DNA of 64,000 bases, taken from IMG/VR virus record IMGVR_UViG_3300010163_000001, positions 64,001 through 128,000 of that record. One strand, written 5' to 3'. Position 1 is the first letter of the stretch; each line of letters starts with the position of its first letter. Shown piece by piece: positions 13,941 to 59,888 of this stretch. The position numbers and the translations under genes were made by a program. Source of the DNA: a virus (Duplodnaviria; Caudoviricetes). The notes beneath the pieces are model-generated. The model saw only the letters and a program-made list of their open reading frames with translations, was not told the DNA's origin and did no database searches.

Positions 13941-13980
13941 AAAAAAAGAAAGTATGCTTTTTTAACATACTTTCTTTTTT
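13941..13980. terminator. Bidirectional intrinsic terminator closing the small pentamer array
   Basis: AAAAAAAGAAAGTATG-loop-CATACTTTCTTTTTT. Confidence 0.8.
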
Positions 13981-13981
13981 A

Positions 13982-14108
13982 CATCTCTGCACTAGACGAA
14001 ACACACTTAACTTTACTTCACAGAACCATAACAAACCATACTCCGCATAACCTTACCCATCCTCTTCTATACATTACTTTACTTCACAGAACCACAGCAT
14101 AGCTGTTC
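13982..14108 (-). repeat. Small pentamer-phased (GNNNN)n array, about 4 units; candidate ncRNA
   Basis: + strand C every 5 nt with CC shifts at 14092/3, 14061/2 and 14026/7; 19-bp direct repeat at 14010-14028 and 14076-14094. Confidence 0.8.
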
Positions 14109-14122
14109 TATTTGTCTAATGA

Positions 14123-14662
14123 CTATGCAAAAATTTCATCCGCTCTTCTTGCCATGTCTTCAAAGGAAATCGAACCATTATACAATTTTCGACGACTCCT
14201 CTTGTTGTATATTACAACATTTGACACAACATTTTCTCCTTCAATACATTCTATATCAATTGGCTCTTGATTTTTAAGCTTACTGATAAATTCCGGAATC
14301 GTATTTGCTATACTTAATAAAGATGTCATGATATACCCTTCTAGAGTATCATCGTCATCCATGTCAATGACATCCTGCATTCCCATAACTTCCAAGCTAG
14401 TAACCTTCCCACCTGTTGTGTGGAAGATAATTGCTTCATGCAGCAAACCGAGCATTGCTATTTTCCGGTATTCATCTTTCCCGGCGCTGTCTATCAGTGC
14501 AGATGCCAATTGCTCAGGTGTAAAGGAGCCATTTAATCTCGGATCGCCGTCGAATTGCATTTCAGTAAGTGCCATCATTTGTTCTGTGATAATGGCAATT
14601 GCCATCGTAACTTTTAGTTCTCCCCATGCGTCCTTAAATTGATCAATAATATTGTTTTTCAT
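14123..14662 (-). CDS. Hypothetical protein, 179 aa
   Basis: GGAGG RBS; own TATATTATTTT motif at 14707-14718. Confidence 0.8.
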   Translation of the reverse strand: MKNNIIDQFKDAWGELKVTMAIAIITEQMMALTEMQFDGDPRLNGSFTPEQLASALIDSAGKDEYRKIAMLGLLHEAIIFHTTGGKVTSLEVMGMQDVIDMDDDDTLEGYIMTSLLSIANTIPEFISKLKNQEPIDIECIEGENVVSNVVIYNKRSRRKLYNGSISFEDMARRADEIFA

Positions 14663-14746
14663 TATAATTCCTCCGTTTCTTAAAATTGATTTAGTTTCTT
14701 TACCTAAAAATAATATATGTGTAATTCTCGAGTAATTTCAATGAAA

Positions 14747-36392: not shown

Positions 36393-37490
36393 GTGATGTT
36401 TATGGCTATTACAATGTATAAGTCTATAGACGCTGCAATTTCTAAAGTAACAGAACTTGAATTTGAGGAAGTAGGCTATTTAGAAAAAGCTTCAAACGCA
36501 AGCCTTGATTCAAAAACTGAAAATGCTGGCTATAATAATTATACTAAATATTGGAGAGACCTCAATCAGCTCGGAATTATGGGTCAATCTTCTAATTTTG
36601 CCGGTGGAAATGTATGGTATTGGTGTGCTGGTTACCAGTCATGGATTTTTTACAAAGCATTTGGATTAGATGGTGCAAGAAAATTGTTGCTTCACATGCC
36701 TTATATCACATGTGCAGTATTAGGAGAAAAGGCAAAAGCTGCTGGAAGATTATATGATGATCCACAGGAAGGAGATATTTCATTGTTCTGGAATGGGTCC
36801 AGATATAGTCATACAGGATATGTATATGCAGTTGATAGTAACAAATTCTATACTGTAGAAGGAAATACGAATTCAAGTGCAGGTGTTGTTGCAAACGGTG
36901 GTGGAGTATTCAAGAAGTCCTACGTAAGATCTACAATGAAAAATAAAGGAACGAAATTCTTTAGACCGGATTATTCTTTGGTAGTTGACGGAAAAGGAAA
37001 TACTTCTTCTAATTCCAAGCCATCCAAACCAGCAACATCTTCAAATAATTCAAATTCTACAAAAGTTATCGGGGAAGCAAAAGTAACAACCAAGACAGAT
37101 CCACTTATGTGTAGGAAGAGTGCTTCTTCCAGTGCAAGTATTCTTGGTAAGTTTGCAAAAGGTGCAACGGTTTCAATCCTGGCAAAGACTAATTCTTCTT
37201 GGTGGAAGGTAAAAGGCAAATCCACAGATGGAAAGACAATTACGGGATATTGCTCAACAAAATATCTAACAGAATGTGCAGATAAAGTTTCTCTTAAGAT
37301 AACAACCAAGACAGACCCGCTCAGATGTAGAGCAACTGCTTCTTCAAACGGAAAAATTCTTGGTAAGTTTGCAAAAGGTGCAACGGTTACATTGGTTGAG
37401 AAAACAAATTCTTCTTGGTGGAAGGTAAAAGGCAAATCCACAGATGGAAAGACAATTACGGGATATTGCTCAACGGAATACTTGGGCTAA
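36393..37490 (+). CDS. Endolysin / cell-wall hydrolase: CHAP domain plus two SH3b repeats
   Basis: NYTKYW, WCAGY, SHTGYV, TVEGNT; Ser/Asn linker; two near-identical SH3 repeats. Confidence 0.9.
   Translation: MMFMAITMYKSIDAAISKVTELEFEEVGYLEKASNASLDSKTENAGYNNYTKYWRDLNQLGIMGQSSNFAGGNVWYWCAGYQSWIFYKAFGLDGARKLLLHMPYITCAVLGEKAKAAGRLYDDPQEGDISLFWNGSRYSHTGYVYAVDSNKFYTVEGNTNSSAGVVANGGGVFKKSYVRSTMKNKGTKFFRPDYSLVVDGKGNTSSNSKPSKPATSSNNSNSTKVIGEAKVTTKTDPLMCRKSASSSASILGKFAKGATVSILAKTNSSWWKVKGKSTDGKTITGYCSTKYLTECADKVSLKITTKTDPLRCRATASSNGKILGKFAKGATVTLVEKTNSSWWKVKGKSTDGKTITGYCSTEYLG
37084..37484 (+). repeat. Intragenic tandem duplication of the SH3b module (offset 216 nt)
   Basis: Long identical DNA stretches, e.g. 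AATTCTTCTTGGTGGAAGGTAAAAGGCAAATCCACAGATGGAAAGACAATTACGGGATATTGCTCAAC twice. Confidence 0.9.
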
Positions 37491-51512: not shown

Positions 51513-53963
51513 TTAAACTAATGATACACCTTTGTTCTTAGAAGCTGTAATTATCATTTCTTTTATTTCCTTCGGAATGTTTAATTCTTCTACTTCTGGA
51601 AGTTTGAATATCTCTTTCCATACGTAATCTTCTTTTTCTCCAGGATAGGATTCCATGAAAGAGATACTTTCCATTTGATCTATGAATTTTGCAAATAACT
51701 TCACATACATAGAACGATTCATTGGAGTATCATATATCGTAAATTCTCCTATTTGTAAAGGCATAATAGCATCTTCTATCATAATATCATCATATTCATG
51801 TTCCTTCACAAACTTTGTCCTTAATCCTATACCTTTCAATTTCGCGTTAAAAATGTCCGCATTTGTATTAATATAATTATCCTTTACTACAAGTCTCTTG
51901 ATTTCCAATGGATTTCCATCTGTCTCTAAAATTTGTTTTAATGCTTTCTTTCCAAGAGTAGAAGAACGCATAAAGATATTATATTCCGCCAATAATCTCC
52001 CAGATATTGCAGCCATCAAATTATAAGCTTCACCAATTCGCACTGGTGATTTTGAATATTGACTGCGATTATCTCTCTTTGTGGTGTCTTTAACAGGGAG
52101 ATTCGCTCTATCAATTCGAAAAGTGCTTCTTGCAGAGAAGTTCTTGTTATTATTATGCTTGAGAACCATCATATATTTCTCAGCAACAATACCATCCTTA
52201 ATAATTCTTCTTCTTTTCGTTCCAAATATATCAATATACAATGGAAGTGGTTTGATAAAATCGAAAGTGTCATAAATCTTTCGTATTGTTTCATATCGAA
52301 TCGGAGAATCTTGTTCCTTTCGAATATAAAATCCATGTTCTTCTACATTTCGTATAAATCTTTCTTTCTCTTTCTGATTAACTAATGCAATATTATGACT
52401 TCTAATTGTTAACTTTTGATCAAATGAATTATACATATCATAGAAGAAATTACATTCAGACTCATTAATCAATCCCAAATATTCGAATATTAAGTCTTCT
52501 TTTTCTTCCATTGTATCTAACGATACTACTTTCTTACGAATTTCCTCTGAACAGAAATTCAAATCCAATTCGTCTAATTGTCCAGGATTTAATCTTCGAA
52601 GTGCTCCAGATGCATTTAACATAATATCAACAGGATACTCATCAGTATAAGGCATCTCAGAATCCGGAACTATTTCTATATTAGATGCCAATTTTGCACG
52701 CTCTTCATCATTGATCGGTCTTCCTAACATGTCTAATATGGAGTCTATTGTATCAGTTATCATATCAGCAACACCTGGTTCTGAAACCACATTTGAAACT
52801 ACTCCTTTATCTCCATACCTACCGGCAACTTTTGACCCGGGTACTAACCCTAATACGGATTGAACCTTAAATTCCACTATCATATTTCCAAACGGTTTAT
52901 TTTTCTCTTTTCCACACCAAAGCCATTCCGGATCATTGAAATGCTGATATTTACTTTTGAAGAACGGAATATTATCTGTATACTTTGATCCTGACTTTTT
53001 AATCTTACTGCTCCACTCTGTCATCTTATCTGCATATGCACATATCTCATCATACCATCCTTTTAACTGTTTAAAGAAAGTCGTTTCTGGAAATGGATCT
53101 GGATTATTGTAATAAATATTAACATCGTAAATGAAACTGTAATCCGCCTCACCAATGTAATAATCAAAATCTGTACTGTAAATTCTTCTCAGATTATCAT
53201 TCTGAAAATCTGTTACAATATGATCTTTGTTGATTGGTCTTAAAGCCATCAGTACGCTATCTTTAATATTTTCTCCAAAATTTGGGCATATTTGATAGGC
53301 ATTTTCATCCCCATATAAGTTCAGAGGAATATGATTCATATTAATAGGTATCGTTACCGTATCAATTTCGACTGATTTTACTCCATCTGCCCATCCTTTT
53401 CGAATTTTAACTGCGTCTTCTAATGTATCTGTAGAAGTTGAATAATACACTTTCGCATTCTTACCATACCGATAATTCATGTGCTCATCATATGCAGTAG
53501 ACTTATAGATTACTTTATCTGTAATAACATCTCCTACTTCTAGTTCATCCATTACTTTCGTATTATATACAAATCCAAATTTCTCAATTAGATTCTCTGC
53601 AATTGGTTTTTCTATCATATCATATAAATCTTTCTCTGGATTATATAATACGAGTGTATAAATCATTCCGTTTTTAAATTTTCTTATAATATCTTTTACT
53701 TCCCAAGTTCCTTCTAATCTTTTATAAGAGCGATCTTTATTTAATTTTCCTAATGGATTTTCCCATCCAGTAGATATTCTCGGAACATCAGGATTCAATA
53801 AGGTCAAACTTTGTATTGTCTCTGCTGTGTTCATGTATAACCTAGAAGCATCTATATCACTAGGCCATGTCAATAGCGTATTCGCAGACATTTTATAAGT
53901 TTGACCTTCATACATTTCATCCATTTTGACATAGTCATCTTTAAAAGCAATCGCCATCTTCAA
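51513..53963 (-). CDS. Phage multisubunit RNA polymerase beta subunit, C-terminal half
   Basis: DASRLYM...Q (cf. DANRALMGANMQRQ), TLEDA, GSKVAGRYGDKGVVS, RRLNPGQ, KYMMVLKH, PVRIGE. Confidence 0.92.
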   Translation of the reverse strand: MKMAIAFKDDYVKMDEMYEGQTYKMSANTLLTWPSDIDASRLYMNTAETIQSLTLLNPDVPRISTGWENPLGKLNKDRSYKRLEGTWEVKDIIRKFKNGMIYTLVLYNPEKDLYDMIEKPIAENLIEKFGFVYNTKVMDELEVGDVITDKVIYKSTAYDEHMNYRYGKNAKVYYSTSTDTLEDAVKIRKGWADGVKSVEIDTVTIPINMNHIPLNLYGDENAYQICPNFGENIKDSVLMALRPINKDHIVTDFQNDNLRRIYSTDFDYYIGEADYSFIYDVNIYYNNPDPFPETTFFKQLKGWYDEICAYADKMTEWSSKIKKSGSKYTDNIPFFKSKYQHFNDPEWLWCGKEKNKPFGNMIVEFKVQSVLGLVPGSKVAGRYGDKGVVSNVVSEPGVADMITDTIDSILDMLGRPINDEERAKLASNIEIVPDSEMPYTDEYPVDIMLNASGALRRLNPGQLDELDLNFCSEEIRKKVVSLDTMEEKEDLIFEYLGLINESECNFFYDMYNSFDQKLTIRSHNIALVNQKEKERFIRNVEEHGFYIRKEQDSPIRYETIRKIYDTFDFIKPLPLYIDIFGTKRRRIIKDGIVAEKYMMVLKHNNNKNFSARSTFRIDRANLPVKDTTKRDNRSQYSKSPVRIGEAYNLMAAISGRLLAEYNIFMRSSTLGKKALKQILETDGNPLEIKRLVVKDNYINTNADIFNAKLKGIGLRTKFVKEHEYDDIMIEDAIMPLQIGEFTIYDTPMNRSMYVKLFAKFIDQMESISFMESYPGEKEDYVWKEIFKLPEVEELNIPKEIKEMIITASKNKGVSLV

Positions 53964-59235: not shown

Positions 59236-59871
59236 CCTTTACTTCATAACACCCAACAAGACAAAGCTATTCCATATCTTTACTAAACAACTCAACTCAT
59301 CTCTATACCTCCACACTACATCACTTTGAAGCACAAATCCATAACCATCCATACCTAACTTCACTGCACCCAACATGTCGCAACTACTCCATAACTTTAC
59401 TATACTATTCTTTGCAAGGCTACTCCATTTCTATACAAAACTCAACATGACAGTTCAGCGCCTCAACTTAACTATACTATCATAATATTTCATAGCTTCA
59501 CATCACCTGTTGCTACCAAACGATACGGTACTTTACCATTGCAATACCTCACCCCGCAATACTCATCCATCACATCACAAAACGAATCCTTTCTCTTCCT
59601 TTACTTATCATAACAATACGTTACTCTACATTAACAGTACAACTCATCTCTATGCAGTTCTTTACTTGACTGAATTATTCCCTTACATTTCATCACGTAA
59701 TCAAACCATACCATTCCCCTACTTTACAACACAACTCGTCACATTACCATTCCCAGGCGTCACGCCGCGATACGTTTCCACTCAATTCCGATGCTTTTCG
59801 CCTCATCTCTCAACAAATCCTTTACTTCACTTCACTCCACACAACGAAACCATGCCTTTACGGTGCTTTTC
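59236..59871 (-). repeat. Large pentamer-phased (GNNNN)n array, about 17 units of 31/36 nt; candidate ncRNA array
   Basis: + strand C at almost every 5th base with CC phase shifts; no long ORF on the minus strand. Confidence 0.9.
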
Positions 59872-59888
59872 TTATTTATTTTACTTAA

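What the first reader, a model, noticed from the sequence alone, without database searches (positions are those of the whole stretch)
13982..14108. Second, distant copy of the same pentamer grammar in another 3' region
Seen: the minus strand reads GAACA GCTAT GCTGT G GTTCT GTGAA GTAAA GTAAT GTATA GAAGA G GATGG GTAAG GTTAT GCGGA GTATG.... GG shifts are 31 and 35 nt apart, one 19-bp segment is duplicated (14010-14028 and 14076-14094), and GTGAAGTAAAG is shared with the large array. The architecture is the same: stop codon, array, terminator, on the sense strand. Inference: recurrence 45 kb away behind an unrelated gene argues for a dispersed, strand-specific (RNA-level) element family. It weakens both the local-slippage and the tubulin-specific-centromere explanations.
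Basis: partly seen in the sequence, partly recalled or inferred. Interest (0 to 1): 0.85.

Follow-up and report, generated by a model that had tools for sequence, protein, structure and literature searches.

The report
Phage VIPR guide-RNA array, dispersed copy
The 130-base stretch with a G at every fifth base is real; it is most likely one of seven scattered guide-RNA arrays of a VIPR system (a CRISPR-like, RNA-guided DNA-silencing system of phages first described in 2026), because the same jumbo phage encodes a lone Cas7-like protein whose relatives in other phages almost always sit beside such arrays.

Summary
Window 13978-14111 (minus strand) is a non-coding array of about 27 five-base units. 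It scores 41.8 nats with a unit model built from the other arrays only; 2000 shuffles reached at most 14.4.

It lies between the stop codon of an orphan 179-aa gene and a 17-pair terminator. The 254.6-kb phage genome holds six such arrays of 118-637 nt and one 42-nt mini-array. All seven are on the sense strand, between a stop codon and a terminator.

Grammar:
- Position 1 is G in 95% of units, position 2 is T or C in 77% and almost never G, and three variable bases follow.
- A GG six-mer occurs every 26-41 nt, which gives a coherent period of 5.1-5.2 nt.

This matches the YNNNG and WGT/NN repeats and the "staggered" arrays described for VIPR vrRNAs in 2026 bioRxiv preprints.

Transcription, protein binding and targets are not shown. 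This scan has already met VIPR arrays on other DNA, so this is a new member of a known kind.

The parts
14712..14741 (-). Promoter-like site (TTGAAA, 18 nt, TATATT) about 50 nt upstream of the orphan gene. Probable start of the transcription unit.
   Evidence: Consensus scan, 10 of 12 matches. This is a consensus match only.
14123..14662 (-). Orphan gene P0001 (179 aa) whose stop codon lies 11 nt before the array.
   Evidence: ORF list and translation. No Pfam or PHROG family. No homologue among 5.8 billion proteins.
13978..14111 (-). The array: about 27 units of G-Y-N-N-N. It is read as a short VIPR-type vrRNA (guide RNA) array of about 3-4 guide units.
   Evidence: Array finder score 42.3. 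Leave-one-out score 41.8 against a shuffle maximum of 14.4. Parse. Period 5.06, power 12.
14088..14093 (-). First GG six-mer (GGTTCT): a one-base phase shift and probable boundary between guide units.
   Evidence: Parse and sequence.
14057..14062 (-). Second GG six-mer (GGATGG), 31 nt after the first.
   Evidence: Parse and sequence.
14022..14027 (-). Third GG shift (GGTTCT, the duplicated copy), 35 nt after the second.
   Evidence: Sequence. By analogy with the first copy of the duplicate.
14071..14099 (-). Copy 1 of the 29-nt internal duplication (19 nt exact).
14005..14033 (-). Copy 2 of the 29-nt internal duplication, 66 nt downstream. It shows that arrays grow by copying multi-unit blocks.
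13942..13980 (-). Intrinsic terminator: a 17-pair hairpin followed by a T run. It ends the transcription unit directly after the array.
59237..59873 (-). Large sister array (637 nt, about 130 units) between the tubulin stop codon and a hairpin, in the same window.
   Evidence: Array finder score 190. Parse. Period 5.10, power 30.

Best explanation
The stretch is one of seven dispersed vrRNA (guide-RNA) arrays of a VIPR-type system in a 254.6-kb tubulin-encoding jumbo phage.

Proposed mechanism:
1. The array is transcribed as the 3' part of a small unit: promoter-like site, orphan 179-aa gene, array, terminator.
2. The phage's lone Cas7-like RAMP protein (P0141, 253 aa, genome 29111-29873, minus strand, about 49 kb from this array) polymerises along the RNA, one protomer per five-base unit.
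3. The constant G and the following pyrimidine are held in protein pockets.
4. The three variable bases of successive units together spell a gapped guide for a DNA target.
5. The GG six-mers every 26-41 nt mark where one short guide ends and the next begins (the 'staggered' array design). This small array would then carry about three to four guides, one of them duplicated.
6. By analogy with the characterised systems, the complex would bind and silence DNA of a competing phage or other mobile element.

Shown here: the grammar and its significance, the family of arrays, their sense-strand and pre-terminator position, the Cas7 fold of P0141, and the near-constant adjacency of P0141 homologues and such arrays in other phages.

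Inferred: transcription, processing, binding, target and biological role.
For: Grammar:
- 344 five-base units have G 95% at position 1 and T 62% / C 15% / A 21% / G 2% at position 2. Positions 3-5 follow the local base composition.
- There are 59 six-base units, mostly GGAANN.
- Six-mer spacing is quantised at 26 (8 cases), 31 (18), 36 (12) and 41 (4) nt.
- The whole arrays show a coherent period of 5.10-5.20 with power 30-38, against a shuffle maximum of 10.6.

Literature:
- VIPR vrRNAs are five-base repeats bound one Vipr protomer per repeat. Alternative NNNGG, YNNNG and NNNNG repeats and staggered arrays with 1-nt offsets are described in bioRxiv 10.64898/2026.04.26.720920.
- Non-canonical WGT/NN and TGH/NN units are described in 10.64898/2026.10.21.760802.
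- The filament structure is in 10.64898/2026.04.26.720927.

Partner protein P0141:
- It carries a glycine-rich loop, LGQWHNSGKGRF, near its C-terminus.
- The AlphaFold model built with 9 sequences has pLDDT 68.9 and pTM 0.62.
- All 50 best Foldseek matches in the PDB are CRISPR effector complexes, the chains I recognise being Cas7-type backbone subunits (Csm3, type VII Cas7, Cmr, Cascade); best E 3.2e-5.
- The family profile's best PDB sequence hit is type VII Cas7, E 0.013, over the glycine loop.

Association:
- 12 homologues (30-46% identity) were found in IMG/VR contigs of 34-58% GC.
- In 11 of them my array finder, trained only on this phage, finds an array directly next to the gene and on its strand, with scores 28-143.
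- Those arrays show the same G-Y-NNN units, GG six-mers and period 5.14-5.22.
- Across the divergent loci the RAMP gene is the only shared protein.

Positive control: an unrelated contig (L066) with canonical GGY/NN repeats has upstream a 219-aa protein that matches PDB 36pp 'SUSP1 Vipr protein' (E 7.6e-4).
Against: - No RNA evidence: no sequencing run could be listed.
- P0141 shows no significant sequence similarity to SUSP1 Vipr or to the P0140 Vipr family. phmmer and hmmsearch found nothing. hhalign gave E 0.017-0.29 and aligned only the glycine loop. The link to published Vipr proteins therefore rests on fold and context.
- In this genome the RAMP gene has no array beside it: its stop codon is followed directly by a terminator. 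The arrays lie 24-208 kb away behind unrelated genes.
- No conserved 3' tail and no conserved accessory (vap) gene was found.
- Decoded guides found no target above controls in the phage's own genome or in 150 kb of related phages. Two exact-pattern scans of IMG/VR gave 3 and 2 unrelated hits, about my own rough estimate for chance.
- The model's pLDDT is only moderate.
Confidence: 0.8

Rival explanations
1. The array is a solo or decoy vrRNA array. It is VIPR-type RNA, but it works with or against the Vipr protein of another phage, for example by redirecting or soaking up a competitor's complex, and not with P0141.
For: Orphan vrRNAs in phages and satellites that redirect another element's VIPR are reported in bioRxiv 10.64898/2026.10.15.759431 (abstract). 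In this genome none of the arrays is next to the RAMP gene.
Against: The phage has its own RAMP gene. The arrays beside that gene's homologues elsewhere share the same unusual grammar: a single G, six-mer punctuation and period 5.14-5.22. Own use is therefore the simpler reading.
Confidence: 0.08
2. The array is a 3'UTR landing platform for a different oligomeric RNA-binding protein of the host or phage. This would work like TRAP, which reads 11 (G/U)AG triplets spaced by 2-3 nt, and would control mRNA stability or terminator read-through.
For: The array is on the sense strand between a stop codon and a terminator. The unit spacing of 5 with occasional 6 resembles natural TRAP sites (my own knowledge of the B. 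subtilis trp leader). Stretches such as GAGAT GAGTT GAGTT occur in the large array.
Against: From the unit matrix I estimate that only about a quarter of units can carry an in-phase (G/U)AG triplet. No TRAP, Hfq or cold-shock domain is found in the genome. This reading does not explain the co-occurrence with a Cas7-like gene in 11 of 12 other phages.
Confidence: 0.05
3. The array acts at the DNA level, as a binding array for an architectural or partition protein, for example a centromere for the phage tubulin. The 5.13-bp mean period would then equal half a helical turn.
For: The largest array directly follows the tubulin gene. The coherent non-integer period of 5.10-5.20 equals 10.2-10.4 bp per two units.
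Against: There are seven arrays behind unrelated genes. Tubulin-bearing relatives lack the array. All arrays lie inside transcription units upstream of terminators and on one strand. A canonical VIPR array (L066) has period 4.92, so the period is not tied to DNA twist. No partner DNA-binding gene is linked to the arrays.
Confidence: 0.04
4. The array is a neutral by-product: a decayed pentanucleotide microsatellite made by replication slippage, with no function.
For: There are internal duplications. Array length changes quickly between relatives: 637 nt against 158 nt against none.
Against: Random decay would erode all five positions equally. Here position 1 stays G in 95% of 344 units and G is excluded at position 2, while positions 3-5 are free. 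Tandem Repeats Finder sees no repeat there. The same grammar is found in unrelated phages of 34-58% GC.
Confidence: 0.03

Closest known systems
VIPR systems with alternative YNNNG (or WGT/NN, TGH/NN) repeats and 'staggered' vrRNA arrays (bioRxiv 10.64898/2026.04.26.720920, methods and fig. S18 legend; 10.64898/2026.10.21.760802, section 2.3)
   Same: - Five-base RNA repeat with one or two constant bases (G, then a pyrimidine) and variable bases.
- Long uninterrupted arrays in which units are offset by one base.
- A lone Cas7-like RAMP protein without other cas genes.
- Phage-encoded.
   Different: - The arrays are not beside the RAMP gene. They are spread over seven sites, each as the 3' end of an unrelated protein-coding transcription unit (one follows a tubulin gene).
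- The six-mers are GGAANN here, where the homologues' arrays have GG-pyrimidine.
- No conserved accessory gene was found.
- The protein is not detectably similar in sequence to the Vipr proteins I could test.
Type II VIPR of Escherichia phage SUSP1 (Vipr, Vap1 and four vrRNAs; PDB 36pp; bioRxiv 10.64898/2026.04.26.720920 and .720927)
   Same: The proposed mode of action is the same: one protomer per five-base repeat, constant bases sequestered, and variable bases presented as a gapped guide for double-stranded DNA.
   Different: - SUSP1 vrRNAs are discrete transcripts of about 100 nt with 9-16 YNNGG repeats and a conserved structured 3' tail, next to vipr-vap1.
- Here only one G is constant, three bases vary, there is no tail, the guide units are 26-41 nt, and there is no vap.
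Class 1 CRISPR backbone filaments (Csm3, Cmr4 or Cas7 on crRNA)
   Different: - CRISPR filaments bind 6 nt per subunit on a spacer flanked by 25-40-nt repeats.
- Here there is no CRISPR repeat, the period is 5 nt, and there are no Cas5, Cas6, Cas10 or large-subunit genes.
TRAP binding sites in Bacillus trp leaders
   Same: Both are single-stranded RNA read at 5-6-nt intervals by a protein oligomer and located before a terminator.
   Different: The triplet specificity (G/U)AG is not met. The arrays are up to 637 nt long against about 55 nt for TRAP. No TRAP gene is present.

Membership tests
VIPR system | A Vipr protein: a lone RAMP (RRM core, glycine-rich loop, thumb) encoded without other cas genes. 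| tested here: met
VIPR system | vrRNA: tandem five-base repeats with constant and hypervariable positions (YNNGG or the alternative NNNGG, YNNNG, NNNNG). | tested here: met
   G 95%, then Y 77% (G 2%), then three variable bases, over 344 units. This array scores 41.8 nats by leave-one-out. It corresponds to the YNNNG type named.
VIPR system | Physical linkage of the vipr gene and its arrays. | tested here: inconclusive
   Not adjacent in this genome. Adjacent and co-oriented in 11 of 12 contigs that carry a P0141 homologue.
VIPR system | Sequence membership in the published Vipr protein family (PSI-BLAST family of X1U2U4 / SUSP1 Vipr). | tested here: not met
   No PDB sequence hit to 36pp. 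No hit with a profile of 136 relatives of the Vipr homologue P0140. hhalign E 0.017-0.29 over the glycine loop only. phrog_4652, the PHROG family that P0140 matches, is absent from the genome. X1U2U4 itself could not be tested.
VIPR system | Conserved structured 3' tail after the repeat tract (type II). | tested here: not met
   Each array ends at a different terminator hairpin with no shared sequence. The staggered architecture in the paper is a separate design whose tail rules I could not read (the figure is not held).
VIPR system | Accessory vap gene next to vipr. | tested here: not met
   The RAMP gene is the only protein shared across the divergent homologue loci. The neighbours of P0141 have no informative family. 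The paper says loci 'typically' have a vap gene, so this is not strictly required.
VIPR system | vrRNA is expressed and co-purifies with Vipr. | not testable with these tools
   No run was listed.
VIPR system | Guides match natural DNA targets under a fixed skip rule. | tested here: inconclusive
   Six decoding rules gave no excess over scrambled guides in the phage's own genome plus 150 kb of relatives. Two exact scans of IMG/VR gave 3 and 2 unrelated hits. The rule for YNNNG units and the host are unknown.
TRAP-type RNA site | At least 9-11 in-phase (G/U)AG triplets with 2-3-nt spacers, and a TRAP (mtrB) protein. | tested here: not met
   The unit matrix allows such triplets in only about a quarter of units (my estimate). 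PF02081 is absent from the phage. The host was not testable.
TubZRC centromere (tubC) | A single iteron cluster beside tubR-tubZ, conserved with the tubulin module. | tested here: not met
   There are seven arrays behind unrelated genes. Five tubulin-bearing relatives have only a terminator after the gene.
CRISPR array | Direct repeats of 25-40 nt alternating with spacers. | tested here: not met
   There is no tandem repeat at these sites and no repeat family beyond the 29-nt duplicate.

The most novel reading that the evidence does not exclude
Every array is the 3' end of a protein-coding message (tubulin, an orphan gene and others). The RAMP filament might therefore also act in cis on those messages, for example by stabilising, timing or localising them. 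Alternatively, guide production may be deliberately coupled to the expression programme of seven different genes. Either would be a use of a Cas7-like filament on mRNA 3'UTRs that has not been described for VIPR.
Probability: 0.1. Interest if true: 0.75.

Novelty: new member of a known kind. Interest (0 to 1): 0.45.

Why it matters
VIPR systems were first described in April 2026. They are proposed to predate CRISPR, and few have been examined outside Enterobacteria and Pseudomonas phages. This phage adds several points:

- A RAMP family that sequence searches with known Vipr proteins do not reach.
- A single-G repeat code with three variable bases per unit.
- About 470 guide units packed into staggered arrays.
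- An unusual layout in which the arrays are scattered as 3' ends of ordinary genes, up to about 208 kb from the protein gene.

For genome annotation, G-phased, C-poor tracts before terminators should be read as guide arrays, and the spurious ORFs called inside them should be dropped. The array finder trained here recovered arrays in unrelated phages, so it could be used to map this sub-family and, once its pairing rule is known, its targets.

Tried and rejected
- **Rfam.** No family matched in the window at gathering thresholds.
- **Similar DNA.** blastn of the locus against 50,697 GenBank phages found no match. Short-word blastn of the array against its own genome found only words of 13 nt or less besides the internal duplicate.
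- **RNA evidence.** No RNA or DNA run holder was listed.
- **Relatives at this locus.**
  - The upstream gene has no homologue.
  - The downstream gene's homologues are at most 47% identical, and the two loci I fetched for them have no array.
  - The tubulin and P0001 queries found nothing in IMG/VR.
- **RNA folding.** The z-score of -4.3 for the small region includes the terminator hairpin, which I take to account for much of it. The large array gave z -1.9. Neither is informative.
- **Other RNA-binding partners.** TRAP, Hfq and cold-shock domains are absent from the phage.
- **Finding the RAMP gene by sequence.**
  - Failed: Pfam RAMPs, the L066 Vipr protein, phrog_4652, motif searches modelled on Csm3 and Vipr, and a profile of 136 Vipr relatives.
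  - It was found by reading the C-terminal 75 residues of all 150-300-aa proteins.
  - Single-sequence AlphaFold failed with pLDDT 37. The 9-sequence alignment worked.
- **Target search.** Nothing rose above controls.
- **Literature.** Two searches on five-base periodicity found nothing relevant. The VIPR lead came from this scan's earlier notes, and I then checked it in the papers.
- **Half-helical-turn DNA idea.** I considered it and dropped it, because a canonical VIPR array has period 4.92.

Full report
**What is there.**
- The window is bases 64001-128000 of a single 254,592-bp IMG/VR virus record with inverted terminal repeats, rated complete.
- It has about 31% G+C, and 183 of 257 rough ORFs are on the minus strand.
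- It encodes a tubulin (Pfam PF00091).
- That tubulin's relatives (up to 80% identical) lie on metagenomic contigs of up to 285 kb that also carry gyrase, ThyX and split RNA-polymerase genes. The record is therefore a jumbo phage.

**The finding's stretch.**
- On the minus strand, the 179-aa gene P0001 (14123-14662) ends.
- Eleven bases later a run of five-base units starts. It continues to 13978, where a 17-pair hairpin with a T run (13980-13942) begins.
- A promoter-like TTGAAA-18-TATATT site lies just upstream of the gene.

**Is the pattern real?** Yes.
- Sense-strand composition is 31% G and 8% C.
- G-periodicity power is 9.4 at period 5 and 12.0 at period 5.06.
- A phase-tracking HMM splits the region into 24 five-base, 2 six-base and 2 four-base units, 86% of which begin with G.
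- That HMM is built to find G phases, so I made a separate test. A unit matrix from the other five arrays only, scored by local alignment, gives 41.8 nats. 2000 shuffles of the region gave mean 7.0 and maximum 14.4. Locally shuffled copies of the whole genome never exceeded 14.2.

**A family of arrays.** The same finder lists seven arrays in the genome:

| Genome coordinates | Length (nt) | Score | Note |
|---|---|---|---|
| 53212-53510 | 299 | 93.7 | |
| 77978-78111 | 134 | 42.3 | this finding |
| 123237-123873 | 637 | 190.2 | after the tubulin gene |
| 182878-182919 | 42 | 18.5 | mini-array |
| 211929-212453 | 525 | 151.5 | |
| 214950-215393 | 444 | 130.8 | |
| 236743-236860 | 118 | 38.2 | |

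- All seven are G-phased on the minus strand.
- Each starts within a few bases of a minus-strand stop codon and ends at a hairpin with a T run.
- The plus strand has nothing above 15.2.
- The genes in front of the arrays are unrelated to each other.

**Grammar.**
- Pooled over 344 five-base units: position 1 is G 95%; position 2 is T 62%, A 21%, C 15%, G 2%; positions 3-5 follow the local A/T-rich composition.
- The 59 six-base units are mostly GGAANN.
- Their spacing is quantised: 26 nt (8 cases), 31 (18), 36 (12), 41 (4).
- Because the one-base slips are so regular, each whole array has a sharp non-integer period of 5.10-5.20 with power 30-38. Shuffles reached at most 10.6. Power at exactly 5.00 is about 0.5.

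**Comparative evidence at the loci.**
- P0001 has no homologue in 5.8 billion proteins.
- Homologues of the downstream gene (at most 47% identical) were fetched at two loci. There the gene upstream ends at a terminator with no array.
- Five relatives with 59-75% identical tubulin go straight from stop codon to terminator. The closest relative (80%) has a 158-nt array of the same grammar at that spot.
- The arrays are therefore young, variable in length and not part of the tubulin module.
- They grow by block duplication, as the 29-nt duplicate here shows. From reading the sequences, I also see a segment of about 42 nt that is identical in the 212-kb and 215-kb arrays.

**What it is.**
- I first considered a TRAP-like RNA platform, a DNA half-turn lattice and other ideas.
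- The notes of this scan then pointed to VIPR systems, and I checked the papers.
- bioRxiv 10.64898/2026.04.26.720920 describes phage-encoded Vipr proteins (ancestral Cas7-like RAMPs) that bind vrRNAs made of five-base YNNGG repeats.
  - The constant bases are held by the protein.
  - The variable bases pair with double-stranded DNA in a gapped code.
  - It names alternative NNNGG, YNNNG and NNNNG repeats, and 'staggered' arrays whose vrRNAs are offset by one base.
- The cryo-EM paper shows one protomer per repeat in a helical filament.
- A third preprint reports non-canonical WGT/NN and TGH/NN units next to Vipr-like folds.
- The grammar measured here (G, pyrimidine, three free bases, with a one-base offset every 26-41 nt) is the YNNNG, staggered form.

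**The partner protein.**
- Sequence searches with RAMP Pfam models, with a bona fide Vipr homologue and with its profile all failed. That homologue is P0140 from contig L066; it matches PDB 36pp 'SUSP1 Vipr protein' at E 7.6e-4 and phrog_4652.
- Reading the C-termini of all mid-sized proteins showed one with a RAMP-like glycine loop, LGQWHNSGKGRF. This is P0141, 253 aa, genome 29111-29873, minus strand.
- It has 12 homologues in IMG/VR contigs of 34-58% G+C.
- An AlphaFold model from a 9-sequence alignment has pLDDT 68.9 and pTM 0.62.
- All 50 best Foldseek matches are CRISPR effector complexes, the matched chains being Cas7-type backbone subunits such as Csm3 and type VII Cas7; best E 3.2e-5, probability 1.00.
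- The family profile's best PDB sequence hit is type VII Cas7, E 0.013, over the glycine loop.

**The association test.**
- The array finder, trained only on this phage, finds an array directly beside the P0141 homologue and on the same strand in 11 of 12 contigs (scores 28-143).
- Parsed, those arrays show G-(T/C)-NNN units, GG six-mers every 6-7 units and periods of 5.14-5.22.
- Across the divergent contigs the RAMP gene is the only shared protein.
- This recurring pairing of one protein family with one RNA grammar, in otherwise unrelated phages, is the main reason for my confidence.

**What is unusual here.**
- In this jumbo phage the RAMP gene is followed only by a terminator.
- The arrays sit 24-208 kb away, each as the tail of a separate gene's transcription unit.
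- The six-mers are GGAA, where the homologues' arrays have GG-pyrimidine.
- There is no conserved 3' tail and no conserved accessory gene.
- P0141 is not related in sequence to the Vipr proteins I could test.

**What is not shown.**
- Transcription, processing at the GG sites, binding by P0141, and targets are all unproven.
- Decoding the variable bases under six spacing rules gave no excess of matches over scrambled guides in the phage's own genome or in 150 kb of related phages.
- Exact scans of IMG/VR with one guide of this array, under two rules, gave 3 and 2 mutually unrelated hits. My rough estimate for chance alone is 2-3.
- The host is unknown.

**Verdict.**
- The element is best filed as a further, somewhat unusual example of the VIPR guide-RNA systems described in 2026. 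This scan has already met these systems several times on other DNA.

Noticed in passing
G000 genome 29111-29873 (minus strand; locus L126:3115-3873), outside the window: Lone Cas7-like RAMP gene (P0141). The long ORF call starts 25 codons too early; the likely start follows an AAAGGAGG ribosome-binding site. The copy in this phage has a Lys/Glu-rich C-terminal tail (residues 225-253) that its homologues lack.
   Followed up: yes
L066:744-1720 (IMGVR_UViG_3300028887_002201): Canonical VIPR locus. A 219-aa Vipr homologue matches PDB 36pp at E 7.6e-4. It is followed by about 310 nt of GGY/NN repeats with period 4.92, running up to the next gene's ribosome-binding site. The protein belongs to phrog_4652, which PHROGs lists as 'unknown function', so that PHROG can be labelled Vipr.
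   Followed up: partly
L079:5918-6386 (IMGVR_UViG_3300030040_000114, minus strand): 469-nt G-phased array (period 5.18, score 73) between a small gene and a DnaC-like loader gene, in a 7.4-kb contig of 46% GC. I saw no RAMP gene on the part held. It shares a 16-nt word with the 212-kb array of this phage.
   Followed up: partly
L111:2075-2175 (minus strand): About 100 nt of near-perfect GGAAT/GTAAT five-base repeats in an A/T-rich gap of a high-GC viral contig, next to palindromes. It may be iterons or a small vrRNA.
   Followed up: no
G000 genome 182878-182919 (outside the window): 42-nt mini-array (score 18.5) lying directly before a strong terminator, after a 150-aa gene. It may be a single guide unit.
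   Followed up: partly
G000 genome 211929-212453 and 214950-215393: By my reading of the sequences, the two arrays share an identical segment of about 42 nt. They bracket three genes of 245, 346 and 146 aa with no informative family. ORF callers place spurious ORFs of 45-69 aa inside all arrays.
   Followed up: partly
window 37084-37474: 216-bp tandem repeat, 1.8 copies, 86% identical. It lies in a region where the GC skew changes sign.
   Followed up: no
L137 (IMGVR_UViG_3300028666_000024, 169 kb, 34% GC): A large low-GC phage contig with a P0141 homologue followed at once by a very clean 325-nt array (score 143) with GGTAAG/GGTAAA six-mers and several duplicated guide blocks. It would be a good model locus for this sub-family.
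   Followed up: partly
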